A stretch of DNA of 40,000 nucleotides from the NCBI RefSeq assembly GCF_000979455.1, contig NZ_JJOY01000052.1, forward strand, positions 1 through 40,000, written 5' to 3'. The notes beneath the pieces are model-generated. The model did not search any database and was not told the origin of the DNA. It saw only the letters and a list, made by a program, of their open reading frames with translations. Positions 1,586 to 22,892 of the stretch are shown here, one piece after another. Both the position numbers and the translations under genes were made by a program. Origin of the DNA: Methanosarcina sp. 2.H.T.1A.6. GTDB lineage: Archaea > Halobacteriota > Methanosarcinia > Methanosarcinales > Methanosarcinaceae. Within the stretch, counting starts at the first letter, position 1. The number at the start of each line of letters is the position of its first letter.

Positions 1586-2749
1586 TTATGGATTATAGTA
1601 GTCTCTTTGATTGAAATGCGATTTACTATTTATCAATGTCAACTTTGAAAAGTTATTGAAATTGATTGCCGTATTGTAGTTTTCATCAGTTTTATTAGAA
1701 TCCATCCAATATAATATTTTTAATTCTTCAGGTAACAATTCATTAATTTTTTTTACAAAATCAACTGAAAGTTGCAATGATTCTACTAATGATTTTTCAT
1801 TTAACTTGAGCAATGGTTTTAATTCTGATTCTTTAGAAGAGGGGTCGATAAATGCAGAAGCATGTATGTACCTATCGCGGATATTAATAACTTCTTTATA
1901 TTTAGTAAACAATTCTCCAATCTTAGCATCATTTTTTATGTTAGGAAAAAGCTTAAAAAGAACTCGGTCAACGATTTCTTTATCTTGAATTTTTCTTTTA
2001 TTCATATCTAAGTTAATATTTTCATTATAAGACAAATTTTCTGTTATTGATAATAAAAGATCATAAAGATACGCTTCAACAAAGCTTACACACAAAATGA
2101 TTAAAGTCCTATGAAGAGCTCCTAATGAATAAGAATCATGTCTGTTTTGGTTATCTTTGAGATACTCATATTTATCTTGCATATCTTTTATATCCGTCTG
2201 GGAATTTGACAAATTTGTTCTTACATCCAGATAATAATTCCATTGCACTTTCAAATCATTAAAAAGTATATATTCAGGAAATGTTACAGTGATAGGTTGA
2301 TCCAAGCTGAACTGCACCCAATGGTGATCGGTTAAGCAAGATATTCCATAATATTTGTTGACATCAAAAATTTGAGAAATTTCCTTTATTTGAAATAAAG
2401 AGATTTCATTGTTGTCTATTTCTTTTAATCTACATCTTAAGAAAGTGATTACATTACCCAAAAATATATTATCGTATGGCTTCTTGAAATGGGAGTTTTC
2501 TAGACTTGAATTAACATTTGTTGAGATAATTTTGAATACTAAATCAACATCTGTTTTTTTAGGGGGGGATTTTAAGAACGATATTAAAAATCGTATATTA
2601 TCACATTGCATATCTGTATAATGTTTCCCATAGATAATGTTTATAAAGATACCGCATATTGCATATTTATATAATTTCTTATATGTACCCGACGTTTTCT
2701 TAAGTCTACGATGACTAATCAAATCTAATAAAAAAATTTCATCCTTCAT
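1586..2749 (-). CDS. Hypothetical cargo protein, possible C-terminal HEPN-like domain
   Basis: 387-aa ORF in the polB-proximal cargo slot of casposon W. The only recognisable signature is an Rx4H motif (NIRDRYIHASAF) in a helical C-terminal region, preceded by FVEAYLYDLLL. No other family is recognised. Confidence 0.6.
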   Translation of the reverse strand: MKDEIFLLDLISHRRLKKTSGTYKKLYKYAICGIFINIIYGKHYTDMQCDNIRFLISFLKSPPKKTDVDLVFKIISTNVNSSLENSHFKKPYDNIFLGNVITFLRCRLKEIDNNEISLFQIKEISQIFDVNKYYGISCLTDHHWVQFSLDQPITVTFPEYILFNDLKVQWNYYLDVRTNLSNSQTDIKDMQDKYEYLKDNQNRHDSYSLGALHRTLIILCVSFVEAYLYDLLLSITENLSYNENINLDMNKRKIQDKEIVDRVLFKLFPNIKNDAKIGELFTKYKEVINIRDRYIHASAFIDPSSKESELKPLLKLNEKSLVESLQLSVDFVKKINELLPEELKILYWMDSNKTDENYNTAINFNNFSKLTLINSKSHFNQRDYYNP

Positions 2750-2920
2750 AAATTATCTATTTATTTTTAACATATTAAAATATAAAAAGTTGTTTAGTCT
2801 TTGTTAATAAAAATTTGAAAGTAATCCCCTTTTGGAAATTTATATACTGCAAAACAGCGTACAAAAACGGAATTTTTATTATTTATTCTTTATAAAAAAC
2901 AGAGCGATATTTAGTCAAAT

Positions 2921-2992
2921 GAACTTTTAGATATACGGTTGTGCATAAATCTCACAAAACAGCGTTGCGTTTTTTTAAGTTACCTATATCCC
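2921..2992. repeat. Terminal inverted repeat of casposon W (polB-proximal end)
   Basis: ...AACTTTTAGATATACGGTTGTGCATAA...CAGCGTTGCGTTTTTTTAAGTTACCTATATCCC is the reverse complement of the X left TIR at 3007-3078 and resembles 13226-13300. Confidence 0.85.
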
Positions 2993-3006
2993 AAAAGAAG
3001 AGTGCG

Positions 3007-3078
3007 GGGATATAGGTAACTCAAAAAAACGCAACGCGTGTGTACTGATTATGCACAACCGTATATTTTCAAAAGTTA
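3007..3078. repeat. Left terminal inverted repeat of casposon X
   Basis: GGGATATAGGTAACTCAAAAAAACGCAACGC...TTATGCACAACCGTATATTTTCAAAAGTT is inverted with respect to 13226-13300 (X right end) and 2921-2992 (W). Confidence 0.85.
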
Positions 3079-3172
3079 CATCACTAAAAATTAGTTTATT
3101 ATTATAATTCATATTAAATAATTGGTTTAAATTTTTTTGGGTTTAACATTTTCAGTTTAAGATCTAATTAAT

Positions 3173-4345
3173 TCATGTGCTGAGTTCATTGTAATCAACA
3201 TTTTCTAATCCAAACAAAAAATCTAACATAAGGTATGTCCTAATTAAATGATCTTTTCTTCCATACTTTACATATTCGCCATGCATTATCTTATGTCTAC
3301 TTAGTCCAAAGGGGTTTTCAAGCTTTTGTTTTGTGTAAGCTGTTTGAAAAAGAGTATTAAGAATAAAATTATTCCCTATTCCTAAAGCTGCCGACGACAT
3401 CGAACCATTGGGCAATGAATATTCAATGATATTTGGGTCAAATATATCTTTGAAAATTTTGTTTCGATTACTAATTCTCCAATTATTCTTGTTCATTTTG
3501 TCTGTCCAAACTAAACCCTTTCCTTTTTGTATAATGGTAAATTCATTTTGAATAAGGTAATCTGTGAGAATGCCATCTATTTGAGAAATTAATGTTGGAA
3601 TCAAAAAGTTTGAAGGATTATAACTATTGTGAGAGTGTTTCAATAGATTATAACTATCTCTAAATATCTTCATTCTTGGTTTGAATAAAGTGTTCTCTTC
3701 CCAAGATTCAATCATAGAGGCTAATTTCTCAAAATTATTTCTTGAAAAGTAGTTAATAAACTCTTGACGTATTTCTTTTCCCAATTTTCCTGAAGGGTTT
3801 TCGATTGTTCGTGAAAAGTTCAAAATGAAATCATCTTCTAATGAAACCGTTATAAACCAATTATGTTTTTGTAATATAGGTATAATTTTTGAATCAACGC
3901 TATCAACAAAAGAAAGACGTTTATTCACAAAATCAAAAAGCTGTACATTTGTTTTTACCCAATTATCGAAAACTAGTTCTTTCGAAATTAAATTTGATAG
4001 TTTTATATGTGCATCTTCAATTGCCTTGAACATTGAAGGAGAATAAACTTCTGAAAGGCTCTTTTGTGCATCTTCAATTACCTTAAACGTTGAAGGGAAA
4101 ATGACTTCTGAAAACCTCTTATGGGCATCTTCAATTACCTTAAACGTTGAAGGGAAAATGACTTCTGAAAACCTCTTATGGGCATCTTTAATTGTTTTAG
4201 TTGCCAGAGCATTCTGATATTCAGGAGAGTAAATGTTGGTTTTCTCTTTTTTACTATCTAAAGTATTAGTTTCTTCAGATTTTGTATCAATATTCCCTTT
4301 TTTATTATCTGAAGTATTAGTTTCTTCATTTAAGTCGTCAGACAT
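3173..4345 (-). CDS. Hypothetical cargo protein with N-terminal 19-aa tandem repeats; possible C-terminal HEPN-like motif
   Basis: 390-aa ORF with a low-complexity Lys/Glu/Thr-rich N-terminus and repeats IEDAHKRFSEVIFPSTFKV (x2 perfect plus degenerate copies). The C-terminus has GLSRHKIMHGEYVKYG (Rx4H followed by G). It occupies the same slot as 1586-2749 and 13623-14609 but is unrelated in sequence. Confidence 0.65.
   Translation of the reverse strand: MSDDLNEETNTSDNKKGNIDTKSEETNTLDSKKEKTNIYSPEYQNALATKTIKDAHKRFSEVIFPSTFKVIEDAHKRFSEVIFPSTFKVIEDAQKSLSEVYSPSMFKAIEDAHIKLSNLISKELVFDNWVKTNVQLFDFVNKRLSFVDSVDSKIIPILQKHNWFITVSLEDDFILNFSRTIENPSGKLGKEIRQEFINYFSRNNFEKLASMIESWEENTLFKPRMKIFRDSYNLLKHSHNSYNPSNFLIPTLISQIDGILTDYLIQNEFTIIQKGKGLVWTDKMNKNNWRISNRNKIFKDIFDPNIIEYSLPNGSMSSAALGIGNNFILNTLFQTAYTKQKLENPFGLSRHKIMHGEYVKYGRKDHLIRTYLMLDFLFGLENVDYNELST
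4011..4190. repeat. 57-bp coding tandem repeat (about 3.3 copies) inside the 390-aa cargo gene
   Basis: 4068-4124 and 4125-4181 are identical. 4011-4067 is a diverged copy and 4182-4190 starts a partial copy. Confidence 0.9.
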
Positions 4346-4421
4346 ACCTAATAAAGTTTGAATTTAATCTATTTAAGTTATTCTTTATTTAGAGAAAGAT
4401 AAATATCTAATATTAAATTCA

Positions 4422-7089
4422 TTAATATTCATTTACAAGTTTCTTTACTTCTTTCGTGTCCAAGTTCATCTTACTATCTCTCTTAACTCTATCTTTCATT
4501 CTCTTCAATGTACTTCTATGTTTGATTCCGAATTCCCTAGCCTCTTCAGGAGTTAAAGCCAAAATCTTCTGTTTAATCTCTTCCTCATTCACGAAAACTT
4601 GAGCCCCAACAATATCTAAAGGCTGATCTTCAATGCTGTTGGCTTCTTTCCCAATGTAAACTAAACCATCAGCTTGAATATTTCTCCTTTTTAAAACCCC
4701 TCTCTCTCCATCAAACTTGTTTTCAAGATGCTCAACATACTGCAAAATTGTTCTGCTTAATGGTTTGAAATATTGAGATCCTTCCTTAACTTCTCCTGTT
4801 TCATAATCAATAAATGGCTCATAAACTATCTTCTGATAATCTTTTGTAAATGGAGCCAGAGGCTTAACAGCCTTATCATTTTCTTCAATTGCCTGAAATC
4901 CTACAAGAAAGAAGTTAAAAGGTTTAATCTGTTCTTTCCAGTTTTTCCCTTCATTTAGCTTTTTAAACCTGTTCAAAACATTAGAAGTACTAACAGTAAG
5001 CCTGGAAATTGCATAAAGGTTAGAGTACTTATCTTGAATATCCTTTCCAGTAATCTGCCCATAGTGCAGTTTAAGAATATCCTGCCAGATTTCAGCCTGC
5101 CAATCTTCAACCGAGTTAGGGAAAGGGTTTGTTAAATGCCCAAGTCCATGAAGCTTATAAGATCTTTCATCTTCCATGAACCTGATTTTTCCATTCTCAT
5201 AGTAGTATAAAGCATACCTTTTAGAAGCAATACCATAAAACCAGAGATCCTTTTTCTCAGGTTTAAGTAATGGAATATCAATTAGGGTTAAGAGCCTGAA
5301 AGAACTTCGCAAGCTCCTGAGCCTTATCGGGAGGCACAAACACAGAGTCAGTATCCATGTAAGCGTGAATTGCTCCAAGCTCTTTCAACTTGGCTTCAGC
5401 CATTGTTAAGAAAAGCCTGGCTCCTGATGTAATCATAACAGCCAGAAGAGGATGAAAATACTTCCCTGACTTCTCAAACCTGTTTTCTTTTGTAACGAAA
5501 TTCTCAAGCCCATAAACCTGAAACTCACTTTTCCTATCTTCTGGGTTAAGCTCAATAAAGATTCCATAACTGAGAGCATTTACAAGGATCTTGATAGCCT
5601 GGGCTCTGCTTGATAGATGTTGAAATTCAGGATCATTTTTATCTGTCTTTTTTGACCTTTCCTTAATTTTCTGCCTCTCTTCTACAAGAACCTGAACAAT
5701 GTTATCCTTTGACGGATCAATGTCAACTCCAAGAATCCTGGATTTCCTTAACCCCTTCTGTACTTCTTTAGGAATAAATTTTACAGCTTCTTTGATCTTT
5801 GGAGCCTTGCCAGCAAGGAGATATGAGCCTATAACATCCGGTAAAGAGTACCACATCTCAGAGTTAGAACTCAGATAATTGATTCCTACGTTAAACCCTG
5901 TATTATTTCCTTTGTAATCCATCCTTACAGGTAAATTATCATTATCAGGCTGAATCTTGACCATAACAACAAGCTTTTTCCATGTATCCTGTTTCTGAAG
6001 GTCTGAAAGCTTCAGTTTTGAGATAAACTCCCTGGTTTCTTCTGTGATGTCTTGAATTTCCAGGCTCTCAGCTATGATGTATTTCCAGAGGTTCATTTCC
6101 ATTGTAACTGTGGGATACATGCTTGTAAAATCCAGAACATTAACCTTTGTTGGCTCCTTCCTTATTTTACATTCTGTTCTTCCCCCAAAATAGGAAGTCA
6201 TCATGTTTCCAATAGCTGAATCTGGAAACTCTGGATTCATTTCCAAGAATGGCTTAACCCCTAACTGGCTGAGAGCATGTTTTCCAATGGAAGCAGAGCT
6301 AAAGATCTTTGTTATGGGTATATGGATCTGATAAACGTCAAGCTCCTTAACAAGTGCCTTATATACAGCCTGGGTGGTTTCAACATCCTTTACCAGATAT
6401 TCAATATACTTTTCAGTAACCTTTCCATGCTTAACCTCTTTCATCTTCTGAACAGGCGTGTTAAGCTTCTCTCCTGCTCTCTCAAGGGAAATATGGTTTG
6501 ATTGAAGGAGAACTTCAGCCAGCCTTTGAGTATCCAGGAAATATCCTGAAAAATAGCTCTCTCCTTTGTTCTGCTTGGTAGTGGTAAACTTAAAGCTGTT
6601 AGAATAGCCAAGCTTCCTGATGATTACAGGAGGCTTAAAGGGATCCTTTGAGAGGGTAAGGGTAAAGCCTCCTCTGTTCCTTTCTCTTGAATCTCCTGAT
6701 CTTTTAGCTATCCTGCTTATATCAAAAGCCAGGTTATACCCATTGCAGAGGGTTTTAAGCTCAAAGACTTCAGGATAAAATACATTGTCTATAAACTCAT
6801 CCAAGCGGTACAGGTTTAAGTTATGGTTTCTTGAATAGGCTTCCAGTATCTTTATTTCTCTCTCATTAAGGGTAGTTGGATCATGGAATAAACCATCATG
6901 CTGAATAACTCCATCCTGGTAAATCTGGAAGTATCCGATCTTGAAATTTTGATACTGGTCGGTTGTGGTTTCAGTATCAAAAACCAGTACCCTGTTATGC
7001 CTGAGAGAAGTATCATAACGCCTAAAGCTCCTGTATCCTTCTTTTTTCTCAAGCCTCTGAGTATATCCTCTGACTGCAACTTTAGACAT
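4422..7089 (-). pseudogene. polB: Family-B DNA polymerase of casposon X, split by a frameshift near 5280-5290
   Basis: Two overlapping ORFs (5278-7089 and 4422-5378) together cover the full intact Y polB. Relative to Y (AACCCCTATAAAATTGAT), X reads AACCCTAATTGAT, a 5-nt deletion that gives LNPN-stop. All Exo and Pol motifs are otherwise present. Confidence 0.85.
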
Positions 7090-7414
7090 TTTGCATCATC
7101 TCATTTCCAACATCAATTAGTTGAGTTCCTAATTCTGTTAGTAAAGCACCGATAGATACAATCTGAAAAGCTCTCTTTTGTTCAGGAGAGGCATTCCCAG
7201 ATCTGGCTTTTGGGCTTAGCTTATTCTGTTCCCTTGTTATCTTGGAATGGCAGTTTTTACAGAGAGGCTGAACCTGGTCTGAATTGTTCCGCCCATAGGG
7301 ATGATGCATTTCAATTACATCTGGGTCATCTTCCCCACAGATAACACAGCAAAGAGAAGTTTTTCGGTTTCTCTTCTGTTTGTTCAAAGTTTTCTTATAT
7401 GCTTCTTTATCCAT
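7082..7414 (-). CDS. HNH endonuclease (casposon core)
   Basis: CCVICGEDDPDVIEMHHPYGRNNSDQVQPLCKNCHSKIT is an HNH/zinc-finger signature. Its stop overlaps the polB start by 8 nt, as in copy Y. Confidence 0.85.
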   Translation of the reverse strand: MDKEAYKKTLNKQKRNRKTSLCCVICGEDDPDVIEMHHPYGRNNSDQVQPLCKNCHSKITREQNKLSPKARSGNASPEQKRAFQIVSIGALLTELGTQLIDVGNEMMQNV

Positions 7415-7426
7415 AGTTTCCCCTCC

Positions 7427-8065
7427 TCAATGCTGATAGATTTCCAAAAATTCAGGCTCTTCCTGGGCTTCCAGGATCTCATAGAGCTTATCAAGGTCAG
7501 TTTCAAAATGGTGGACTTTGCCTTCAGCATCCACTATTTGAATATCCTTGAACTTGGCAAGAACAGAAGGATCATTGTTTTTTGTAGCCTTGTAAACACT
7601 GGCAAAATATTCTCCAATCAAAGACCTATCCTTAGAACTGGCTGTAACAATCGTTTTTTGTCCTTCTGTGGAGTAGATCAGCATATTGACCTGGATAGTA
7701 TCGGCTTTTGTGACCTTCCAGGTTCCTCCTGACTTGTACAGGTTCTTTCCAAGATGCTTGACTGCAAATTCGGGTCTTTTGCCTATTTTTTCAAGTACAG
7801 AAGAAAGGTTTTCTCCTTTTCACATTTTCCTTGAAATTTGAAGAGATAGGGTTCTATCTCTCTTATCCTGGGCTGAAAGAGTTTTCCAGGCTACCTGGCT
7901 TAGATCAAAATCTCCGATCTTGAGTTTTCTAAGTTGGCTGAGGCTCCGATCAGGGAAAAACTTGTGTTTCCTGATGATTTCTTTTGCATATTTTGTATCT
8001 CTGGACTGAGCCTTGAGCCATTCTCCATAGGTTCTACATTCTTTGGAAAATCTTGGTCTGCTCAT
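7427..8065 (-). pseudogene. Casposon core gene ORF212 homolog interrupted by a single in-frame TGA (7820-7822)
   Basis: ORFs 7820-8065 and 7427-7684 are in the same frame, and the frame is open between them. Y reads GAA ATG AGA AAA GGT where X reads AAA ATG TGA AAA GGA. Confidence 0.75.
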
Positions 8066-8211: not shown

Positions 8212-8312
8212 GTAACTCACAATAAACAGTATGCATTACTAGGTATTGTACAGAATTGAGTATAACTTTAAGTACAAGTTTGACGTATATTTTATATATA
8301 CTTGGGATCAAT
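8212..8312. promoter_or_regulatory. Divergent promoter region between the RHH operon and the wHTH-cas1 operon
   Basis: AT-rich 100-bp spacer with TATA-like boxes (TTTATATATA at 8291-8300, TATAACTTTAAG near 8264). The same arrangement is conserved at 18498-18600. Transcription start sites cannot be determined from sequence. Confidence 0.4.
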
Positions 8313-14711: not shown

Positions 14712-17384
14712 TCAAAAGAGAGAAATTAATTTCTTTACTTCTTTAGTTTTCATATTGATTTTCCCATCTTTTATTATCTTATCCTTTATCTTTTTTAAAG
14801 TGCTCCGGTATTTTATTCCAAATTCCCTAGCTTCTTTTGGGCTTATGTTTAAAATTTTTTGTTTAATCTCTTCCTCATTAATGAAAACTTGAGATTTGGT
14901 AACATCCAAAGGCTGATCCTCAATATTATTGGCTTCTTTCCCAATGTAAACTAACCCATCAGCTTGAATATGTCTTCTCTCTAAAACCCCAATATTCCCA
15001 TCAAACTTATTTTCAAGATGTTCAACATATTGTAAAATCGTCCTGCTCAATGATTTGAAATATTGAGATCCTTCCTTAACTTCTCCTTTTTCATAATCAA
15101 TGAATGGCTCATAAACTATCTTCTGATAGTCTTTAGTAAATGGAGCCAGAGGCTTGACAGCCTTATAATCTTCTTCAACTGCCTGGAATCCTACAAGGAA
15201 GAAGTTAAAAGGCTTAATCTGGTCTTTCCAGTTTTTCCCCTCATTCAGTTTCTTAAACCTGTTCAATACATTGGAAGTACTAACAGTAAGCCTAGAAATT
15301 GCATAAAGGTTAGAATATTTTTCTTCAATATCCCTTTCAGTAATCAGCCCATAATGAAGTTTCAGAATATCCTGCCAGATTTCAGCCTGCCAATCCTCAA
15401 CTGAATTAGGAAATGGGTTTGTTAAATGCCCAAGCCCATGAAGCTTGTAAGACCTTTCATCTTCCATGAATCTGATTTTTTCATTCTCATAGTAGTACAG
15501 AGCATACCTTTTAGAAGCAATTCCATAAAACCATAGATCCTTTTTCTCAGGCTTAAGCAATGGAATATCAATTTTATAGGGGTTAAGAGGCTGAAAGAAC
15601 TCTACAAGCTTCTGAGCCTTTTCAGGAGGCACAAACACAGAATCAGTATCCATGTAAGCGTGAATAGCTCCAAGTTCTTTTAACCTGGCTTCAGCCATTG
15701 TTAAGAAAAGCCTGGCTCCTGAAGTAATCATAACAGCCAGGAGAGGATGAAAATACTTGCCTGACTTCTCAAACCTGTTTTCCTTTGTAACAAAATTCTC
15801 AAGCCCATAAACCTGAAAATCACTTTTCTTATCTTCTGGGTTAAGCTCAATAAAGATTCCATAACTGAGGGCATTTACAAGAATTTTGATAGCCTGGGCT
15901 CTGCTTGATAGATGCTGATATTCAGGATCATTTTTATCGATCTTTTTCAATTCCTGCTTAATCCTCTGCCTCTCTTCTACAAGAACCTGAACAATATTAT
16001 CCTTTGATGGGTCAATATCAATTCCAAGAACCCTGTTTTTCCTTAACCCCTTCTGTACGCCTTCAGGAACAAATTTTATAGCCTCTATGATCTTTGGAAC
16101 CTTACCAGTAAGAAGGTATGAGCCTATAACATCCGGTAAAGAATACCACATCTCAGAGGCAGAACTCAGATAATTGATTCCTACGTTAAACCCTGTATTA
16201 TTCCCTTTATAATCCATTCTTACAGGCAAAATATCATTATCAGGCTGAATCTTGACCATAACAACAAGCTTTTTCCATGTATCCTGTTTCTGAAGGTCTG
16301 AAAGCTTCAGTTTTGAAATAAATATCTTTGTTTCTTCTGTAATGTCCTGAATTTCCAGGCTTTCAGCTATGATGTATTTCCAGAGGTTCATTAACATTGT
16401 AACTGTAGGGTACATGCTTGTAAAATCAAGAACTGTAACCTTTGTTGGCTCTTTCCTGATTTTACATTCTGTTCTTCCCCCATAATAAGAAGTCATCATG
16501 TTCCCGATAACTGAATCTGGAAAATCTGGATTCAGTTCTAGGAAAGGTTTAACCCCTAACTGCTCAAGAGCATATTTCCCAATGGAAGCCTCACTAAAGA
16601 TTTTTGTTATGGGTATATGGATCTGGTAAACGTCAAGCTCCTTAACAAGCTTTTCATACACAGCCTGAGTAGTTTCAACATCTTTTATCAGATAATCAAT
16701 ATACTTTTCAGTAACTTTTCCATGTTCAATTCCTTTCATTTTCTTAACAGGAGTATTGAGCCTTTCTGCGGCTTTTTCAAGGGAAATACGCCTTTCCTGA
16801 AGGAGAACTTCAGCCAACCTTTGAGTATCTAGGAAATAGCCTGAGAAATGACTCTCTCCCTTGTTCTGCTTGGTTGTGGTAAACTTAAAGTTGTTAGAGT
16901 ATCCAAGTTTTCGGATAATTATAGGAGGGTTGAAAGGATCATCTGAAAGAGTAAGAGTAAAGCCTCCTCTATTCCTTCCCCTTGAATCTCCTGATTTTTT
17001 GGCTATTCTGCTAAGGTCAAAAGCCAGGTTATACCCATTGCAGAGGGTCTTAAGTTCAAAGACTTCAGGATAAAACACATTGTCTATGAACTCATTCAGG
17101 GAATACAGGCTTATGTTATGCTTTTTGGAATAGGCTTCCAGTATCTTTATTTCTCTTTCATTCAGGATAGTTGGATCATAGAATAAACCATCATGCTGAA
17201 TAACTCCATCTTGGTAGATCTGGAAGTATCCTATCTTAAAATTCTGATACTGGTCTATAGTGGTTTCAGTATCAAAAACCAGTACTCTTGAATGCCTCAG
17301 AGGAGTATCATAAAGCCTAAAGCTCCTATACTCTCCTTTTTTCTCAAGTCTTTGAGTATATCCCCTGACTGCAACTTTAGACAT
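14712..17384 (-). CDS. polB: Family-B DNA polymerase (casposon Y), intact
   Basis: ExoI VLVFDTETT, ExoII NLAFDLSR, ExoIII YLIKDVETT, PolA LDFTSMYP, PolB KILVNALSYG, PolC YMDTDSVF. The start is set at MSKVAVRGY (as in copy X) rather than the upstream Met at 17411. Confidence 0.93.
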   Translation of the reverse strand: MSKVAVRGYTQRLEKKGEYRSFRLYDTPLRHSRVLVFDTETTIDQYQNFKIGYFQIYQDGVIQHDGLFYDPTILNEREIKILEAYSKKHNISLYSLNEFIDNVFYPEVFELKTLCNGYNLAFDLSRIAKKSGDSRGRNRGGFTLTLSDDPFNPPIIIRKLGYSNNFKFTTTKQNKGESHFSGYFLDTQRLAEVLLQERRISLEKAAERLNTPVKKMKGIEHGKVTEKYIDYLIKDVETTQAVYEKLVKELDVYQIHIPITKIFSEASIGKYALEQLGVKPFLELNPDFPDSVIGNMMTSYYGGRTECKIRKEPTKVTVLDFTSMYPTVTMLMNLWKYIIAESLEIQDITEETKIFISKLKLSDLQKQDTWKKLVVMVKIQPDNDILPVRMDYKGNNTGFNVGINYLSSASEMWYSLPDVIGSYLLTGKVPKIIEAIKFVPEGVQKGLRKNRVLGIDIDPSKDNIVQVLVEERQRIKQELKKIDKNDPEYQHLSSRAQAIKILVNALSYGIFIELNPEDKKSDFQVYGLENFVTKENRFEKSGKYFHPLLAVMITSGARLFLTMAEARLKELGAIHAYMDTDSVFVPPEKAQKLVEFFQPLNPYKIDIPLLKPEKKDLWFYGIASKRYALYYYENEKIRFMEDERSYKLHGLGHLTNPFPNSVEDWQAEIWQDILKLHYGLITERDIEEKYSNLYAISRLTVSTSNVLNRFKKLNEGKNWKDQIKPFNFFLVGFQAVEEDYKAVKPLAPFTKDYQKIVYEPFIDYEKGEVKEGSQYFKSLSRTILQYVEHLENKFDGNIGVLERRHIQADGLVYIGKEANNIEDQPLDVTKSQVFINEEEIKQKILNISPKEAREFGIKYRSTLKKIKDKIIKDGKINMKTKEVKKLISLF

Positions 17385-17709
17385 TTTGCACCATCTCATT
17401 TCCAAGATCAATTAGCTGAGTTCCTAATTCTTTCAGTAAAGCACCAATAGAAACTAACTGAAAGGCTCTCTTTTGTTCAGGAGAAGCGTTTTTAGACCTA
17501 ACTTTTGGGCTGAACTTATTCTGTTCCTTTGTTATCTTGGAATGGCAGTTTTTGCAGAGAGACTGAACCTTGTCTGAATTGCTCCTTCCATAGACATGAT
17601 GCATTTCAATAACTTCTGGATCATCTTCCCCACAGACAACACAGCAAAGAGAAGGGCTCCCATTTCTCTTCTGTTTGTTCAAACTTTTTTGATAAGTTTC
17701 CTTGTCCAT
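17377..17709 (-). CDS. HNH endonuclease (casposon core)
   Basis: CCVVCGEDDPEVIEMHHVYGRSNSDKVQSLCKNCHSKIT. It overlaps the polB start by 8 nt. Confidence 0.85.
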   Translation of the reverse strand: MDKETYQKSLNKQKRNGSPSLCCVVCGEDDPEVIEMHHVYGRSNSDKVQSLCKNCHSKITKEQNKFSPKVRSKNASPEQKRAFQLVSIGALLKELGTQLIDLGNEMVQNV

Positions 17710-17721
17710 AGTTTCACCCCC

Positions 17722-18360
17722 TTAGTGCTGATAAATTTCCAAAAACTCTGGCTCTTCCTGGGCTTCCAGGATCTCATAGAGCTTATCAAGGTCGGTTTCA
17801 AAGTGGTGGACTTTGCCTTCAGCATCCACTAGTTGAACATCTTTGAACTTGGCAAGAACTGAGGGATCATTGTTTTTTATTGCCTTCTGAACGCTGGCAA
17901 AATATTCTCCAATTAAAGACCTATCCTTAGAACTGGCTGTAACAATCGTTTTTTGTCCTTCTGTGGAATAGATCAGCATATTAACCTGGATAGAATCGGC
18001 TTTTGTAACCCTCCAGTTCCCTCCTGACTTGTACAGGTTCTTCCCAAGGTGTTTAACTGCAAATTCTGTCCTTTTGCCTATTTTTTCAAGCACAGAAGAA
18101 AGATTTTCACCTTTTCTCATTTCTCTTAAAATTTGGAAAGATAGATTTCTATCTCTCTTATCCTGGGCTGAAAGAGTTTTCCAGGCTGTCTGGCTTAGAT
18201 CAAAATCGCCTATCTTCGGATTTCTAAGCTGGCTGAGGCTTTTATCAGGGAAAAATTTGTGTTTCCTGATGATTTCTTTTGCATATTTTGTATTCCTAGG
18301 CTGAGCCTTGAGCCATTCTCCATAAGTTCTGTAGTCTTTGGAAAATCTTGGGCGGCTCAT
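17722..18360 (-). CDS. Conserved casposon core protein of unknown function (ORF212)
   Basis: 212-aa ORF translationally coupled to the upstream RHH gene (ATGA overlap). A homolog lies at 7427-8065. No motif is recognised. Confidence 0.75.
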   Translation of the reverse strand: MSRPRFSKDYRTYGEWLKAQPRNTKYAKEIIRKHKFFPDKSLSQLRNPKIGDFDLSQTAWKTLSAQDKRDRNLSFQILREMRKGENLSSVLEKIGKRTEFAVKHLGKNLYKSGGNWRVTKADSIQVNMLIYSTEGQKTIVTASSKDRSLIGEYFASVQKAIKNNDPSVLAKFKDVQLVDAEGKVHHFETDLDKLYEILEAQEEPEFLEIYQH

Positions 18361-18497
18361 CTGTCAGCCTCCATTATTCTGATAAAAGCTGTTCTCATAA
18401 CTTCAGCCTGAGAGCATCCGTATTCTTCTGCTTTCTGTTCCAGTTTCTCCTTAAGGTAAGGAGATAATGTTATCAAAACTCTGTCTTTTGTGGTCAT
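18357..18497 (-). CDS. Ribbon-helix-helix (CopG/Arc-like) protein, 46 aa
   Basis: My own translation gives MTTKDRVLITLSPYLKEKLEQKAEEYGCSQAEVMRTAFIRIMEADR, homologous to 8062-8211. Confidence 0.7.
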   Translation of the reverse strand: MTTKDRVLITLSPYLKEKLEQKAEEYGCSQAEVMRTAFIRIMEADR

Positions 18498-18600
18498 GTA
18501 GCTCACAAAGAACAGTATGCTCAGATCTTACTTATGTACAGAATTGAGTATAACTTTAAGTATAAGTTTGATGTATATTTTATATATACTTGGGATTAAT

Positions 18601-19485
18601 ATGAAGAAGAAAGAGTATGACTTTGACACAGAAATAAAGAATTATCTTGTCCAAAAAGGGTATGCAAGAAGGCGGCAACTCATAGAAGACCTAATGAAAG
18701 CACACAAAAATGAAAGAGGATATAGCCTCAAGAGTATAAACCGCAAACTGGACAATTTGATTAATCAAGGAATAATTATAAGTCTCAAATACTCCGATTT
18801 TGAAAAATTAGGAATAGAAGATGCTGATAAAAGAGCCAGTTACCTAACCTTAAAAAATATATCCAAAATAAAGGAGCATATGGATAAGATTTTAGAAAGG
18901 CTCGCTTCAAAAGAACCCACGAAGCAAAAAATGGCTTTAAAAGAGATTGCCCTTTATGAGCAAGTATATGTTTTAACTCCTGAACAGTTGGATTTAGTGG
19001 TAAAGCAATTTGATAAGGGTATTGATAAGGAAACTATAGATGATGACCTTGCTAATACGCTATTACTTTTATTATACACATATATTTTGAAAAAAGGTAT
19101 CGAACCAGCTAATAAAATAAAAACAATCGACCTGTTAGTAAAACTGCTAGATAAGTATCCTGCTCCTGTTCCAAGGCAAGTAAATCTAAGAACGCACATC
19201 ATTTATCTTCTTGGGCATTATGGGCATAAAGCTGTAATTGAAAGGTTTATAAAAGATGCAAGAACCTTACAAGATTTTTCACCCATAGAAAACGTTTACA
19301 GTACCGAATACACAGCTAATCTTATTGAAGAACATAGAGAAGAACTTTACAAACTGCAAGAAGATTTAGCAATAGAAGGAAAAGAGAATGCTTCTCAGTT
19401 TGTTTCCAATATCAGAAGTGATGTTCTAATTTCTTTGGGCTTGCGTAAAAACCCTTTTGCTAAAAAGGAGGATGATTCTTGGTGA
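18601..19485 (+). CDS. Winged-helix protein with helical-repeat C-terminus (casposon core)
   Basis: Homolog of 8313-9203. The start is set at MKKKEYDFDTE, and the stop overlaps the cas1 start. Confidence 0.7.
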   Translation: MKKKEYDFDTEIKNYLVQKGYARRRQLIEDLMKAHKNERGYSLKSINRKLDNLINQGIIISLKYSDFEKLGIEDADKRASYLTLKNISKIKEHMDKILERLASKEPTKQKMALKEIALYEQVYVLTPEQLDLVVKQFDKGIDKETIDDDLANTLLLLLYTYILKKGIEPANKIKTIDLLVKLLDKYPAPVPRQVNLRTHIIYLLGHYGHKAVIERFIKDARTLQDFSPIENVYSTEYTANLIEEHREELYKLQEDLAIEGKENASQFVSNIRSDVLISLGLRKNPFAKKEDDSW

Positions 19486-20699
19486 AACTTCTTCTTCTGA
19501 ATGGTCACGGCATAAATATGCATGTTGATGGAGCCAGGCTCCATATTAAAGATGGAAGATTTTCAACTACTGAAGAGCCTCAAGAATACATATTTTCTCC
19601 GAAAAGGATTGATATTGACGGCATTATCATATATGGAAAGAGTGGGAACCTTACCTTAGAGGCTGTTAGATGGCTTATTAAACATAATGTTCAGGTTTCT
19701 ATTTTAGATTGGAATGGCAAGCTCTTAACCACAATGCTTCCTCCTGAAAGTACCAATGTAAAAACAAAGTTTTCTCAGTATCATGCTTTTGAGGATAAGG
19801 AAGTAAGGCTTGAGATAGCAAAGAAGTTCATTGAAGCCAAATTTTACAAATCTAAGGCTGTTCTTGATTTCCTGAGCCAAAGGTATCCTGAAATTAAGTT
19901 TGATATTTCGGATGGACTCACAAAACTAAAAGATGTAAAAAGCACTAGGGAAATTTTGGGAGTAGAGGGAACCTTAGCCGGTAAATACTGGACTGAGTTT
20001 TCAAAGGCTGTTCCAAAGGAATACGATTTCTGTAACAGAATAGACCAGTACAGCCGATCTATGAATTCTGGAGATATGGTAAACACCATGCTCAATTATG
20101 GTTATTCTTTGCTTGAGGCTGAATGTTTGAGAGCCATAAATACTGTAGGGTTAGATCCTCATGTAGGGTTTTTACATGAAATGACACCAAGCAAGAACAG
20201 TTTAGCCTATGATCTTCAGGAGCCTTTCAGATTTCTTGTAGATCTGGCAGTAATCAGCCTGGTTGAAAGTGGGGCTATGGAAAGTAAGGATTTCATAAGG
20301 ACAGAAAATTACAATCTCAGGTTAAAGCCTAGTGGAGCCAAAAAGGTTGTTAATGAGTTTACCAATATGCTGAATAAAAAGGTAAGCTACCAGGGAAAAG
20401 AAAGCACATGGAGTTATGTTATCTTTCTGAAGGTTAGAGAATTAGCCCATTATCTTACTAGCAAAAAAGAAAAACTGGATTTTGTTAAGCCTGAATATGA
20501 AATTGAGAGAATTGATTCTTATGATATAAGGCAAAAGATTCTCAATATTTCTTATGTTGATTGGAAGAAATTAGGGTTTTCTAAAGGTACATTGCATTAT
20601 ATGAAACAGAACGCCAAGAGCGATAAGCCATTTACTCTTAATGCTCACGTTCTGGAAAGGGTAAATAAGTGGGAAGCATTGGTTTCAAGTCAAAGGTAA
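19479..20699 (+). CDS. cas1: Cas1-family casposase (solo Cas1)
   Basis: 406 aa with NYGYSLLEAECLRAIN, HVGFLHEM and AYDLQEPFRFLVD. AGGAGGA precedes a TTG/GTG start. Confidence 0.93.
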   Translation: MVKLLLLNGHGINMHVDGARLHIKDGRFSTTEEPQEYIFSPKRIDIDGIIIYGKSGNLTLEAVRWLIKHNVQVSILDWNGKLLTTMLPPESTNVKTKFSQYHAFEDKEVRLEIAKKFIEAKFYKSKAVLDFLSQRYPEIKFDISDGLTKLKDVKSTREILGVEGTLAGKYWTEFSKAVPKEYDFCNRIDQYSRSMNSGDMVNTMLNYGYSLLEAECLRAINTVGLDPHVGFLHEMTPSKNSLAYDLQEPFRFLVDLAVISLVESGAMESKDFIRTENYNLRLKPSGAKKVVNEFTNMLNKKVSYQGKESTWSYVIFLKVRELAHYLTSKKEKLDFVKPEYEIERIDSYDIRQKILNISYVDWKKLGFSKGTLHYMKQNAKSDKPFTLNAHVLERVNKWEALVSSQR

Positions 20700-20730
20700 A
20701 ATGTGTATGTTTTTACTGTAAAATGTAAAA

Positions 20731-20875
20731 ATGTAAAATTTACAGTAAAATAGTAAAAATGCATCAAGAGAAGTTGTAAAATTTACAGTAAAATAGTAAA
20801 ACAGTATCAAGAGAAAGTGTAAAATTTACAGTAAAATTGTAAAACGATAAAAAGAGCAATTGTAAAAAAGTAACG
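20731..20875. repeat. 43-bp tandem repeat, about 3.4 copies, filling the cas1-RT intergenic space (iteron-like)
   Basis: Units at 20731-20773, 20774-20816 and 20817-20859, with a partial unit from 20860. The unit is the same family as 10449-10595 (TGTAAAATTTACAGTAAAATAGTAAAAC...ATCAAGAGAA). Confidence 0.9.
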
Positions 20876-20876
20876 A

Positions 20877-22385
20877 TTAACTATGTGAAGCAGAAGGTCT
20901 TTTAGATGCATCAATTAAAACTGATTCAATTTTAAATTTCCCACATTCATTTATTTTTTTAATTGTTTCTTCTAAATATTTAAGCATCTGGGTCTTGTTT
21001 TGATTTGTTGGTCTTTTAAAGTACTCTTCTTTTTCATCTTTAAACCACATGACCAAAAATAAACCTGATTTGGAAGGACTTGCTTTCAAATATAATGGTA
21101 ATTGTTTAGTTAGACCATGTTCCAACTCTTCATTATGTGCCAATTTAAACTCTGCACAAACATTTACAGGAATGTTACCTTTTATTGTAACCAGGAATTT
21201 GAAGTCAAGTTTTCCGATTCCTTCATCTGTTTCTCTTAAAACATGTATCCCAAAAGGTAGTAAATTTCGACAAAAGAAAATATGAATTGTAGGTTGAATT
21301 TTTGATTCTTTTTTGGGAACAGCTGGTATCTTATACTTTTTTCCATCCATCTCTACCTCACGAGCCTCATCCCAAAATGGTTCAGTCCATCTTCGATCCT
21401 CTATATAGTGTTTCAATTCTGTAATGGTAGTAGCTATGGCTTTTAAAAAATCACTTTCTGACTCAATAATATTATTCGCATCAACTGGATGGAAATAATG
21501 TTTTTTCTCAAGAGATCTTACAATAAGTTCGCTGTCTCTTGAATTTTTTAGATTTTCATCATAACTTAGCCAATTAAAACCTTTAAGTTTCTCTATTAAC
21601 GGATTTGCAAAGTCAGGGTCTACCATTTTAGCAAATGCCAGTTCACCACAAATCTTTTCTTTGAAAAATGGATCCTTCTCTCTATTCTCTGTTTCAGCTC
21701 CATTTTTCTGAATATTATGCACTATTGCTCTTAGAATTTTCTTCTTGCGCCTACCAATACTTACCTTGTCATTAACAACCAAGCCGGTTACTTTTTGCTG
21801 TGAACCTCTTGAAAGTACCCTAGTTTTTTCTTCATTGATAACAAAGCCATTTCTTTCAATAATTTCTATTATTTTTTGCTTGTGCATTGGAAGTTTATAG
21901 GAACCTGAAATCGTGATGTCGTCCGCATATCTTGAATATCGAAAATTTCTTCTTGTACAATAATTGTCGATTTCATAGTCAAGGTCTACAGTAGATAGGT
22001 TAGCGAGCATTGGACTAGTTGGTGCCCCTTGAGGTAATTTCCAATGATATGTGCATAAATCAGAAAGCGACCACGCAATTTTTTTGGTATATCCAGCGGA
22101 CTTAAAGATATAGTAGACAGATCTAAAACTTATACTTGGGAAATAATCCTTTATATCAATCCCTAAAACTAGATCTTGACCAACGTGAATCGAAGCATTT
22201 GTCAAAATTGATCTGTCTGGAATAAAACCATGAGCTAAATTTCCAGCATTCAATTTATACAAAATATTATTTAGAATCCATCTTTGAATATTCTTCATTT
22301 TTTTTGATGGAGCGTTGATTTCTCTTAAACCACCATTTTTTTTAGGTATTTTAAATGTAGAATAAGCCTTCTCTTTATTTGACAA
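20877..22385 (-). CDS. Retron-type reverse transcriptase fused to a C-terminal RecB/Cas4-like PD-(D/E)xK nuclease-like domain (the frame stays open upstream to 22595)
   Basis: RT motifs ILTNASIHVG (NAxxH), LPQGAPTSPMLANL, YSRYADDITIS and SQQKVTGLVVNDK (VTG) closely parallel my recollection of retron RTs such as Ec86. The C-terminal ~230 aa has GKLDFKF (D), CAEFKLA (ExK) and KQLPLYL (QxxxY). The listed start is a TTG. Confidence 0.85.
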   Translation of the reverse strand: MSNKEKAYSTFKIPKKNGGLREINAPSKKMKNIQRWILNNILYKLNAGNLAHGFIPDRSILTNASIHVGQDLVLGIDIKDYFPSISFRSVYYIFKSAGYTKKIAWSLSDLCTYHWKLPQGAPTSPMLANLSTVDLDYEIDNYCTRRNFRYSRYADDITISGSYKLPMHKQKIIEIIERNGFVINEEKTRVLSRGSQQKVTGLVVNDKVSIGRRKKKILRAIVHNIQKNGAETENREKDPFFKEKICGELAFAKMVDPDFANPLIEKLKGFNWLSYDENLKNSRDSELIVRSLEKKHYFHPVDANNIIESESDFLKAIATTITELKHYIEDRRWTEPFWDEAREVEMDGKKYKIPAVPKKESKIQPTIHIFFCRNLLPFGIHVLRETDEGIGKLDFKFLVTIKGNIPVNVCAEFKLAHNEELEHGLTKQLPLYLKASPSKSGLFLVMWFKDEKEEYFKRPTNQNKTQMLKYLEETIKKINECGKFKIESVLIDASKRPSASHS

Positions 22386-22595
22386 AAAAAGTCTAATTTG
22401 TTTTGATGAGGAATTTGATAAGTTACAAAAATGATCAATATCATATATATAAGGTAATTTTTTGGACTTTAAATTTTTGAAAGATTTAAAATTTTCGTCA
22501 TATTCTTCTTTGCTTAGTTCTGGAATAATACCTTCTTCAAAATAATTATCAAATAAAATTTTTAACTTTTCATTTTTTGTTAATTTGTTTATTAC

Positions 22596-22892
22596 TTATC
22601 CCACCGAATATGACTTAAAATTCAGTTAATAGTATGGATAGTTGCCCTCACAAAATCGCTTGCGATTTTATGGTGCATGAAGTTCGTGAAGTTCATGCAC
22701 TTTTCGGTCAAGTTTACCTTTGCCTTAGTATGACATTTGCATGGCGTAACACCACACATATCTCCCTGACGAGAGATAATTCAGATCTGAGAGCAACTAA
22801 TTGTAGTAAGACAACTTATTATAAATATTGTACTAAATTGATCTTAAAGAATTTCATTTTTTCAAATGACCATTATAAAAATAGAAATTAAT
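22596..22892 (-). ncRNA. Candidate retron non-coding RNA (msr/msd) region upstream of the RT
   Basis: About 300 bp with no convincing ORF lies between the RT frame and the inner TIR. It contains stable hairpins at 22652-22669 (7-bp stem), 22673-22700 (9-bp stem) and 22759-22778 (6-bp stem), plus a 10-nt palindrome at 22781-22790. No a1/a2 repeats or branching G could be identified by eye. Confidence 0.3.

What the first reader, a model, noticed from the sequence alone, without database searches (positions are those of the whole stretch)
1586..22892. Both casposon ends act as swappable cargo slots filled with toxin/defence-like genes
The core genes are roughly 85-90 percent identical by eye between copies, but the genes next to the TIRs are unrelated. 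The polB-proximal slot holds the 387-aa protein with Rx4H (W), the 390-aa repeat protein with RHKIMHG (X) and the RES-domain protein (Y). The cas1-distal slot holds the secreted transglutaminase-like protein (X) and the retron-type RT-nuclease (Y). Several of these resemble abortive-infection or toxin domains (HEPN, RES, retron). This suggests casposons act as vehicles for exchangeable defence cargo, much like the hotspots of other mobile elements.
Basis: inference. Interest (0 to 1): 0.65.

Follow-up and report, generated by a model that had tools for sequence, protein, structure and literature searches.

The report
Variable accessory-gene arms of tandem casposons
Three casposons (self-replicating transposons related to CRISPR's Cas1) sit side by side at a tRNA gene; they share a conserved core but carry unrelated accessory genes at both ends, some of them immune-type genes. 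These elements and their accessory genes were already published in 2016, and I could not show that defence genes are enriched at the ends.

Summary
Casposons X (3007-13300) and Y (13315-23076) share one colinear 6.15-kb core at 86.6% identity. Homology stops at the polB stop codon and about 175 nt after cas1. A third, inverted and IS-truncated copy (W, up to 2992) has yet another end gene.

RES, transglutaminase and retron-type RT are confirmed. The retron is close to complete: a conserved msr/msd-like ncRNA lies upstream, and the RT is fused to DUF8371. Its canonical start codon is missing, however. The "HEPN" calls for the 387-aa and 390-aa proteins found no support in any profile or fold search. 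Only a conserved Rx4H motif and defence-island neighbours elsewhere speak for them.

In 41 delimited end regions of related casposons the cargo is extremely diverse. About a fifth hold recognisable immune-type genes (Drt8, retron, SMODS+SLATT, DndB-like, OLD/AriA-like ATPases, NACHT). Flanking control genes hit defence models about as often, so enrichment is not shown.

Ends are reassorted by crossovers inside the core. X is 99-100% identical to a M. mazei casposon over its left 2.8 kb but about 84% over cas1.

The window matches the published Met2HT1A3-C1/-C2 description (Krupovic 2016), which already lists these accessory genes. Interest is modest.

The parts
23086..23170 (-). tRNA-Leu(taa), the integration target. 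Its 3' end contributes 5 nt of the 14-nt target-site duplication (23077-23090).
   Evidence: ARAGORN; sequence.
13315..23076 (.). Casposon Y, which matches published Met2HT1A3-C1. It has an intact core and TIRs of about 200 nt in two modules (13304-13384 / 23007-23087 and 13437-13513 / 22869-22945).
   Evidence: the description in PMC4779613.
14730..20873 (.). Y core: polB (14712-17411, -), HNH (17377-17709, -), 212-aa protein (17722-18360, -), HTH-HEAT protein (18517-19485, +), cas1 (19479-20699, +), and three 43-nt iterated units (20745-20868).
   Evidence: Pfam Cas1 2e-67 and DNA_pol_B; blastn block; repeats.
13623..14609 (-). Y polB-side cargo: a 328-aa protein with a C-terminal RES domain (residues 180-306) and an N-terminal region of about 180 aa containing CxxC pairs. 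No separate antitoxin ORF is present in the slot.
   Evidence: Pfam RES 3.8e-16, 59.9 bits against a cut-off of 23.2; ORF list.
20877..22595 (-). Y cas1-side cargo: a retron-type RT fused to DUF8371. The canonical ORF starts at 22385 (TTG). The frame is open a further 70 codons upstream and that stretch is homologous to the N-terminus of relatives. The homologous TTG start is GTA here.
22639..22799 (-). Candidate retron ncRNA (msr-msd). The a1 arm UAGUUGCUCUCA (followed by G) pairs with the a2 arm UGAGGGCAACUA. The 5' half is conserved and the central long hairpin is variable.
   Evidence: Fold z = -5.5. Conserved in L051 and L079, with two compensatory pairs in the variable hairpin. No Rfam family matches.
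3007..13300 (.). Casposon X, which matches published Met2HT1A3-C2. It is inactivated: polB is split (4422-5378 / 5278-7089) and the 212-aa gene is split (7427-7684 / 7820-8065).
   Evidence: PMC4779613.
3173..4345 (-). X polB-side cargo: a 390-aa protein with 19-aa tandem repeats and a nearly invariant RHKIMHGE motif. It belongs to a large unannotated family.
   Evidence: genomic contexts.
11504..12889 (+). X cas1-side cargo: a secreted 461-aa protein with a transglutaminase-like core. The rest of the slot (10593-11500, 12890-13243) has no convincing ORF.
   Evidence: Pfam Transglut_core 1.3e-11; ORFs.
505..2992 (.). Casposon remnant W. It is inverted relative to X and Y: polB 3' fragment 505-1430 (+), cargo gene, and TIR 2935-2992. 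It sits head-to-head with X across a 14-nt spacer and is cut at about 505 by an IS5-like element (DUF4096 ORF at 107-466).
1586..2749 (-). W polB-side cargo: a 387-aa all-helical protein with conserved R291-x4-H296. It belongs to a small unannotated family.
   Evidence: genomic contexts.

Best explanation
The region is a tandem array of three family-2 casposons inserted one after another at the 3' end of a tRNA-Leu gene. Each element has a conserved core of about 6.15 kb for replication and integration: polB, HNH, a 212-aa protein, an HTH-HEAT protein, cas1 and iterated 43-nt units. The core is flanked by two accessory regions of 1.4-2.7 kb that lie between the core and the terminal inverted repeats.

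These two regions tolerate any insert, because only the TIRs and the core are needed for mobility. They are therefore the places where foreign, A+T-richer genes accumulate. Left and right arms are then reassorted between co-resident or tandem casposons by homologous recombination inside the long conserved core. Some replacement also occurs at the core borders, by a mechanism I could not identify.

A minority of the accessory genes are stand-alone immune, abortive-infection or toxin modules. Here these are a RES-domain protein and a retron with its ncRNA and an RT-DUF8371 fusion. These probably favour retention of the element, through host protection or addiction. Most other cargo is of unknown function.

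Shown: the architecture, the borders, the diversity, the crossover, and the RES and retron identity. Inferred: that the cargo acts in defence, and that selection on cargo explains why the arms persist.
For: Architecture and borders.

Diversity among close relatives. Y carries RES | retron. X carries the 390-aa protein | transglutaminase. W carries the 387-aa protein. L001 (Methanosarcina sp. T3, 90.8% core identity) carries Drt8 (PADLOC 1.2e-147) | a 598-aa unknown. L091 (M. mazei) carries a 390-aa homologue | a 271-aa protein.

Recombination. X against L091 is 99-100% identical over X element positions 1-2800 (TIR, cargo, 3' half of polB) and about 84% over the cas1 region. The left arm has 37 mismatches in 1192 nt against an expected 7.65% (p = 3e-11). 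In L003 the HTH-HEAT gene is replaced, and cas1 is 75% identical while polB is 86.5%.

Survey. The terminal 12-mer TACCTATATCCC is conserved across genera, which allowed 41 unique slots to be delimited. Their genes include RVT_1 x2, AAA_15/AAA_21 x2 (NsnB/AriA/AbiLi/GajA-like), NACHT x2, SMODS, SLATT_4 and DndB. A SIR2_2 gene sits next to a 390-aa homologue in L085.

Retron. The ncRNA is conserved in three loci, and in the window and L079 the retron lies directly inside a casposon TIR next to a cas1 3' end.

Genomic contexts of the two unannotated families: BREX plus TIR genes, a type I R-M operon, and SIR2.

Experimental literature. A mini-casposon carrying arbitrary DNA between TIRs transposes in trans and forms tandems in M. 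mazei, and homologous recombination there needs about 800 bp of similarity (PMC10359463).

Cargo G+C is lower than core G+C.
Against: No enrichment over local background is shown. 58 control ORFs from the flanks of the same loci also hit many PADLOC families (IetA, JetD, RT_UG17, TRIP13, BrxH, DrmB, mad3/8).

Most slot proteins have no family hit. Several are clearly not defence genes: Usp, methyltransferase, glyoxalase, TrmB, NosD/beta-helix, membrane proteins and an IS66 transposase.

The window's retron RT lacks a canonical start codon at the homologous position and may be inactive.

X is itself a dead element. No experiment links any casposon cargo to immunity. A published PADLOC annotation found a low defence density in casposons (PMC11551731).

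How new genes enter the slots is not shown.
Confidence: 0.7

Rival explanations
1. The end regions are merely permissive, fast-decaying zones. Genes land there by chance and are neutral hitch-hikers or remnants. The immune-type genes reflect the general abundance of such genes in mobile DNA and in the insertion hotspots, not a vehicle function.
For: Control flanks hit defence models as often as the slots do. Most cargo is unannotated. X carries about 1.2 kb of slot DNA with no ORF. The RT start codon is lost. Casposons show a low PADLOC density (PMC11551731).
Against: Cargo ORFs are long and intact, even in 54 loci where the core has decayed to a cas1 3' fragment. The same cargo families recur in different casposon lineages and in both slots. 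The retron ncRNA and RT are conserved together in three loci.
Confidence: 0.2
2. The cargo serves the casposon itself, not the host. Toxin-type modules (RES, and retrons acting as tripartite toxin-antitoxin systems) act as addiction or exclusion devices. They stabilise the element or act against rival mobile elements that compete for the same tRNA site.
For: RES and retron are toxin-type systems. Several casposons compete for one site in tandem arrays, in this window and at the junctions seen. Arms persist after core decay, as expected for addictive modules.
Against: No antitoxin partner is identifiable for the RES protein. Many cargo genes are not toxin-like: the transglutaminase, membrane proteins and TPR proteins. 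This reading cannot be told apart from host defence by sequence alone.
Confidence: 0.25
3. The differences are old and lineage-specific, not swapped. Each casposon lineage acquired its end genes once and has carried them vertically since.
For: Identity decays gradually towards the polB 3' end rather than breaking sharply. X and L091, the closest pair in the core, share the left cargo. The 387-aa family sits beside polB in a casposon whose polB is only 42-47% identical.
Against: X and L091 share the left arm at 99-100% identity but have unrelated right slots and only 84% identity over cas1. The 390-aa family is found in either slot. The retron RT in L051 carries a different C-terminal domain.
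Confidence: 0.1

Closest known systems
Family-2 casposons Met2HT1A3-C1 and -C2 of Methanosarcina sp. 2.H.T.1A.3/.6/.8/.15 (Krupovic et al. 2016, PMC4779613)
   Same: [quoted passage not shown] One copy has a fragmented polB. C1 carries a retron-like RT and a RES protein, and C2 carries a transglutaminase. All of these match Y and X.
   Different: The passages of the paper that I read describe two copies. The window also holds a third, inverted, IS-truncated remnant (W) with its own cargo gene. The paper calls the roles of the accessory genes 'enigmatic'. In the passages I read it does not report the ncRNA, the DUF8371 fusion or the intra-core crossover. I could not confirm the strain name directly.
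Cargo or defence hotspots of other mobile elements (pipolins, PMC11551731; also Tn7-like transposons and P2/P4 hotspots, from my own knowledge)
   Same: A conserved mobility core with variable, exchangeable accessory regions that include immune systems.
   Different: PADLOC-detectable defence density in casposons is several-fold lower than in pipolins. I found no enrichment over local flanks. Casposon slots usually hold one to four genes, not islands.
Retrons: 13 types (Mestre et al. 2020, PMC7736814), with Ec86/St85-type RTs
   Same: An ncRNA with a1/a2 inverted repeats lies directly upstream of an RT of the retron clade, and the effector is fused to the RT C-terminus as in types I-C, VII-A1, XI and XII.
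   Different: The fused domain is DUF8371 (PF28130), which is not among the listed effector domains. The host is an archaeon and the carrier is a casposon. msDNA production is untested, and the start codon is aberrant in this copy.
RES-Xre type II toxin-antitoxin systems
   Same: A RES domain is present above the Pfam threshold.
   Different: The gene is a single 328-aa ORF with an N-terminal extension and no Xre-type partner. The NCBIfam Res_ParT_toxin match is far below its cut-off (13 bits against 110).
HEPN-superfamily abortive-infection RNases (Abi_2/AbiD/F, PrrC-like)
   Same: A conserved Rx4H motif is present in both unannotated families. Homologues sit beside type I R-M, BREX/TIR and SIR2 genes.
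   Different: No HEPN family or structure is matched by any search.

Membership tests
Family-2 casposon | Casposase (Cas1 homologue) gene | tested here: met
   Pfam Cas_Cas1 2.1e-67 for 19479-20699. The X copy is at 9197-10417.
Family-2 casposon | Family B DNA polymerase, HNH endonuclease and two HTH-type proteins in conserved order | tested here: met
   DNA_pol_B 4e-07 and weak HNH hits. The same gene order is found in 13 related loci. HTH folds were not tested.
Family-2 casposon | Terminal inverted repeats and a 14-bp target-site duplication at a tRNA 3' end | tested here: met
   The terminal 12-mer is conserved in relatives.
Retron | RT of the retron clade | tested here: met
   PADLOC RT_III-A 5.2e-98. 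NCBIfam retron_St85_RT 262 bits against a cut-off of 235. Ec86 RT 1.7e-50.
Retron | Adjacent ncRNA (msr-msd) with flanking a1/a2 inverted repeats and a G after a1 | tested here: met
   12-nt a1/a2 arms at 22788-22799 / 22639-22650. Fold z = -5.5. Conserved in L051 and L079 with a variable central hairpin. No Rfam family matches. With only three sequences, covariation is thin (2 pairs).
Retron | Effector protein or fused effector domain | tested here: inconclusive
   The C-terminal 230 aa is DUF8371. Invariant residues E88...D122...E140-x-K142...Q156-x3-Y160 fit a PD-(D/E)xK / QxxxY nuclease pattern. Pfam and PDB profile searches find nothing. There is only a weak match to the C-terminus of the antiphage NACHT protein EruA (1e-4).
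Retron | Production of msDNA; anti-virus phenotype | not testable with these tools
   Needs experiment. The homologous start codon is mutated in this copy.
RES toxin | RES domain above the curated threshold | tested here: met
   PF08808, 59.9 bits against a cut-off of 23.2.
RES toxin | Cognate Xre-type antitoxin gene adjacent | tested here: not met
   No other ORF of 60 aa or more lies in 13315-14729.
HEPN superfamily (387-aa and 390-aa proteins) | Conserved Rx4-6H motif | tested here: met
   R291/H296 are invariant or nearly invariant in A1. R350-H351-K352-I353-x-H355-G356-E357 is nearly invariant in A2.
HEPN superfamily (387-aa and 390-aa proteins) | Sequence-profile or fold similarity to a known HEPN domain | tested here: not met
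   Nothing was found in Pfam, PADLOC or NCBIfam. A Pfam scan of 68 family members at E<=1 gave no recurrent HEPN family. PDB profile searches were negative. Foldseek against PDB and BFVD gave no match with E<0.1. The models have mean pLDDT 84 and 69.
Defence-cargo hotspot of a mobile element | Variable region at a fixed position between conserved element parts | tested here: met
   The same two borders appear in all pairwise comparisons. 44 slot calls (41 unique) were delimited.
Defence-cargo hotspot of a mobile element | Enrichment of defence systems relative to background | tested here: inconclusive
   About 10 of 62 slot proteins carry immune-type domains. Flank controls from the same loci are similarly rich, and those flanks are themselves MGE-rich. 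No genome-wide background was available.

The most novel reading that the evidence does not exclude
Casposon arms are a reservoir of archaeal immune modules that current catalogues miss. Three candidates stand out. First, a retron class with a fused DUF8371 (putative PD-(D/E)xK) effector, outside the 13 described types. Second and third, two unannotated protein families (the 387-aa and 390-aa types) with conserved Rx4H motifs; these recur in casposon slots and beside BREX, TIR, SIR2 and type I R-M genes. The frequent survival of 'cas1 3' fragment + cargo + TIR' remnants (54 of 78 loci) would then reflect host domestication of casposon-delivered defence genes.
Probability: 0.3. Interest if true: 0.6.

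Novelty: already known. Interest (0 to 1): 0.35.

Why it matters
If casposon ends really deliver immune modules, then the transposon lineage that gave rise to CRISPR adaptation would also be a carrier of innate immune systems in methanogens. Its arms would be a place to mine for new archaeal defence genes and retron variants.

As it stands, the elements and their accessory genes are published, and the defence-vehicle idea is only weakly supported in quantitative terms. The useful new points are:
- the near-complete retron (ncRNA plus RT-DUF8371);
- the intra-core crossover that reassorts the arms;
- two candidate defence families.

Tried and rejected
HEPN assignment. I tested it with Pfam, PADLOC and NCBIfam on the proteins themselves, and with Pfam on 68 family members at E<=1. 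I also ran PDB profile searches with family alignments, AlphaFold models followed by Foldseek against PDB (both proteins) and BFVD (387-aa protein only), and hhalign of the two families against each other. All were negative.

Nuclease assignment of the RT C-terminus. Pfam and PDB profile searches with 13- and 38-sequence alignments were negative. Only the motif pattern and the DUF8371 label remain.

Rfam. No retron msr or other family matches the ncRNA.

Non-autonomous mini-casposons. I considered that the many cas1-fragment loci might be mini-casposons with two TIRs. For most of them no left-end motif lies near the fragment, so they look like decay remnants.

Nested insertion in Y. I considered that Y's duplicated TIR modules mark a nested insertion that captured cargo. 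The two modules are symmetric at both ends (I4/I5), so this is a long-TIR variant.

Window origin. An exact look-up of the RES protein to identify the source found nothing on record.

Enrichment test. The control set comes from the same MGE-rich loci, and the tool returns only aggregated family counts. It is therefore a weak test.

Full report
ANATOMY

The window holds a tRNA-Leu(taa) gene at 23086-23170 on the minus strand. Three casposon copies are stacked against its 3' end.

The junctions read ...TACCTATATCCC | 14 nt | GGGATATAGGTA.... The 14-nt spacer is ATAACTTTAGTGCG at 23077-23090 and 13301-13314, and AAAAGAAGAGTGCG at 2993-3006.

- Y spans 13315-23076 and has an intact core.
- X spans 3007-13300. 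Its polB is split (4422-5378 / 5278-7089), and so is its 212-aa gene (7427-7684 / 7820-8065).
- W is a remnant in inverted orientation. It consists of a polB 3' fragment (505-1430, + strand), one gene (1586-2749, - strand) and a TIR (2935-2992). It is cut at about 505 by an IS5-like element whose DUF4096 ORF lies at 107-466.

CHECK OF THE OBSERVATION

X and Y align as a single colinear block, X 4440-10592 to Y 14730-20873, at 86.6% identity over 6167 nt. Outside the block only the TIRs match.

In 100-nt windows identity is 80-96% through the core. It sinks to 67-76% in the last 150 nt of polB and then falls to background at about 4440 and about 10590. The W fragment is 90.7% identical to X and 85.6% to Y.

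The end regions are 1.4-1.6 kb on the polB side and 2.2-2.7 kb on the cas1 side. Their G+C is 0.27-0.32, against 0.36-0.37 in the core and 0.44 in the host flank. The right border of the core is marked by three 43-nt iterated units just after cas1.

WHAT THE END GENES ARE

RES. The match is solid (Pfam 3.8e-16, residues 180-306 of 328). There is no partner ORF in the slot.

Transglutaminase. The protein has a signal-peptide-like N-terminus and a Transglut_core domain (1.3e-11). Nothing links it to defence.

Retron RT. It matches retron RT models at 5e-98 in PADLOC and Ec86 RT at 1.7e-50 in the PDB.
- The reading frame stays open for 70 codons upstream of the listed TTG start. With that extension the protein passes NCBI's curated cut-off for retron_St85_RT (262 bits against 235).
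- The codon that serves as the start in the homologue of locus L051 (TTG) is GTA here. This copy therefore either uses a non-canonical start or is damaged.

Retron ncRNA. Directly upstream, on the same strand (22799 down to 22639), lies a 160-nt structured element.
- A 12-nt arm UAGUUGCUCUCA followed by G pairs with UGAGGGCAACUA at the other end. Between the arms are two short conserved hairpins and a long hairpin. The fold has a z-score of -5.5.
- The element is conserved upstream of the homologous RTs in L051 (Methanosarcina sp. Z-7115) and L079 (a metagenome contig). The 5' half is nearly invariant and the long hairpin differs in sequence and length but is kept as a hairpin.
- That is the pattern of a retron msr-msd RNA. 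With three sequences, covariation is thin (two compensatory pairs). No Rfam family matches.

RT C-terminal domain. The C-terminal 230 residues are DUF8371 (PF28130).
- The family has 1765 representatives at E<=0.001, usually at the C-terminus of proteins with varied N-termini.
- Its invariant residues E...D...ExK...QxxxY fit a PD-(D/E)xK nuclease by my knowledge of that superfamily.
- Neither Pfam nor PDB profile searches confirm this. There is one weak hit (1e-4) to the C-terminus of the antiphage NACHT protein EruA.
- Such a fusion is not among the 13 retron types of Mestre et al. (PMC7736814).

The two "HEPN" proteins. This label does not hold up as a tested assignment.
- Both belong to unannotated families, with 15 and more than 100 relatives respectively. 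Their Rx4H motifs are conserved.
- Pfam, PADLOC, NCBIfam, PDB profile searches, a scan of 68 family members at E<=1, and Foldseek searches (PDB for both models, mean pLDDT 84 and 69; BFVD for the 387-aa model) all found nothing. The two families are also unrelated to each other.
- Context is the best evidence in their favour. A 387-aa homologue sits in the polB-side slot of a distant casposon (L082). Another sits next to BREX and TIR-domain genes (L084).
- 390-aa homologues sit in the polB-side slot of a M. mazei casposon (L091), in the cas1-side slot of a casposon remnant beside a SIR2_2 gene (L085), and directly downstream of a type I R-M operon (L086).

SURVEY OF RELATIVES

A Cas1-based scan of one genome per species returned 78 loci, almost all from Methanosarcinales.
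- 13 loci have full-length cas1 with polB.
- 54 loci keep only a 3' fragment of cas1.

The terminal 12-mer TACCTATATCCC is conserved across genera. That allowed 44 slot calls (41 unique) to be delimited between a core gene's 3' end and an element terminus. Each slot holds one to four ORFs.

The 62 slot ORFs of 120 aa or more share almost nothing with each other or with the window's cargo. The one exception is the L051 retron RT, at 67% identity.

Pfam and PADLOC find the following:
- a full-length Drt8-type RT in the polB-side slot of L001 (1.2e-147);
- the L051 retron;
- two AAA_15/AAA_21 ATPases of the NsnB/AriA/AbiLi/GajA kind (L022, L024);
- two NACHT NTPases (L045, L065) and a STAND C-terminal protein (L066);
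- SMODS (L008) plus a SLATT_4 hit, presumably the adjacent 182-aa ORF (this mapping is inferred);
- a DndB-like protein (L005).

The same scans also find Usp, methyltransferase, glyoxalase, TrmB, NosD/beta-helix, TPR and membrane proteins, and an IS66 transposase. Most large proteins have no hit at all.

That makes roughly 10 of 62 proteins, in about 9 of 41 slots, of an immune type.

As a control I took 58 long ORFs from the outer 3.5 kb of the same loci. These hit PADLOC models at least as often: IetA, JetD, RT_UG17, TRIP13, BrxH, DrmB, mad3/8 and HEAT_CxxC_PD-DExK. Those flanks are themselves rich in mobile DNA, so the control is imperfect. Still, enrichment is not shown. A published PADLOC annotation of 48 casposons likewise found a much lower defence density than the 15.9% seen in pipolins (PMC11551731).

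HOW THE ENDS CHANGE

Among elements with 87-92% core identity, the homology block always starts within about 50 nt of the polB stop and ends 105-175 nt after cas1.

The clearest signal of exchange is not at those borders. X and the M. mazei casposon L091 are 99-100% identical over X element positions 1-2800 (left TIR, 390-aa gene, 3' half of polB). Identity then falls to 88-94%, and to about 84% over cas1. Their right slots are unrelated. The left arm has 37 mismatches in 1192 nt, against 7.65% expected from the core (p = 3e-11).

In L003 the HTH-HEAT gene is replaced, and cas1 is 75% identical while polB is 86.5%.

Arms are therefore reassorted by crossovers inside the long core. This fits two published results in M. 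mazei: homologous recombination needs about 800 bp of similarity, and mini-casposons with arbitrary inserts transpose in trans and integrate in tandem at a resident casposon's TSD (PMC10359463). Tandem arrays such as this window put the partners side by side.

How new genes first enter the slots remains unknown.

COMPARISON WITH WHAT IS KNOWN

The window matches the published description of Met2HT1A3-C1 and -C2: two casposons in tandem at a tRNA-Leu gene, one with a fragmented polB, C1 with a retron-like RT and a RES protein, and C2 with a transglutaminase. Sister elements carry HEPN and AbiF-like proteins, and the paper calls the roles of these genes "enigmatic" (PMC4779613).

The 2014 paper already noted casposon genes "implicated in defense functions", including Sir2-like proteins and a restriction endonuclease (PMC4046053). 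Retron-type RTs in Methanosarcina have been known since 2003 (cited in PMC6868368).

What I add:
- the third remnant, W;
- the ncRNA and the DUF8371 fusion, which make the retron near-complete and place it outside the 13 types;
- the intra-core crossover;
- the recurrence and defence-island contexts of the two unannotated families;
- the negative result on HEPN and on enrichment.

VERDICT

"Defence cargo vehicle" remains a plausible hypothesis without quantitative support, and the elements themselves are already described.

Noticed in passing
Genome-contig loci L013-L078; L079 11053-11196; L085 9183-9413: 54 of 78 related loci keep only a 3' fragment of cas1, usually followed by the iterated units, one to four intact-looking ORFs and the terminal 12-mer; 51 of them lack polB. 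The cas1-distal arm seems to outlive the rest of the element. A detection bias from the search patterns cannot be excluded.
   Followed up: partly
window 10464-10588 and 20745-20868: Three 43-nt iterated units (consensus TTTACAGTAAAATAGTAAAACGGTATCAAGAGAAATTGTAAA) lie directly after the cas1 stop. Methanosarcina-type relatives have one to four copies. Other genera have different iterated motifs at the same place, for example GGAGACA in Methanolobus. They look iteron-like, possibly a protein-binding or origin region, and they mark the right border of the core.
   Followed up: partly
window 3007-5800 against L091 (M. mazei CP187260.1): The left 2.8 kb of X is 99-100% identical to a M. mazei casposon while the cas1 region is about 84% identical. 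This indicates a recent inter-species exchange with a crossover inside polB.
   Followed up: yes
window 22590-22600: The start codon used by the homologous retron RT in L051 (TTG, just after a TAA) is GTA in the window. The frame is open but has no ATG/GTG/TTG until 22385. The RT may be N-terminally truncated or may use a rare start.
   Followed up: partly
window 3985-4193: 57-nt tandem repeats lie inside the 390-aa gene and encode 19-aa repeats (EDAHKRFSEVIFPSTFKVI). Close homologues differ in length (371, 382, 409 and 447 aa), which suggests copy-number variation.
   Followed up: partly
window 7427-8065: In X the 212-aa core gene is split into 85-aa and 81-aa ORFs, in addition to the split polB. 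X is inactivated in at least two core genes.
   Followed up: no
window 2993-3006: The spacer between W and X (AAAAGAAGAGTGCG) shares only the tRNA-derived AGTGCG with the other two TSD copies (ATAACTTTAGTGCG). W and X are head-to-head. A similar head-to-head pair, with a 387-aa homologue beside a polB fragment, occurs in L082.
   Followed up: partly
L005 2867-2904, L007 9581-9618, L008 12387-12424, L036 3476-3513, L077 3687-3724, L078 9923-9960: 'End | 14 nt | end' junctions recur in other genomes, often pairing the usual terminus with a variant one (GGGTAATAGGTA). Tandem or nested casposon arrays are therefore common.
   Followed up: no
L079 5986-10954: The same RT-DUF8371 retron in a metagenome contig is interrupted by two IS elements (DDE_Tnp_1, IS66). 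It still lies between a casposon TIR and a cas1 3' fragment.
   Followed up: partly
window 23770-23855 and 23086-23170: There are two tRNA-Leu(taa) genes 684 nt apart. Only the first carries casposons.
   Followed up: no
window 35005-35130; 33751-34731: A 16-nt unit (AAAACAGGCCTTCTGA) is repeated about six times downstream of a 973-aa ORF. That ORF itself contains a 600-nt internal duplication. Neither feature is related to the casposons.
   Followed up: no
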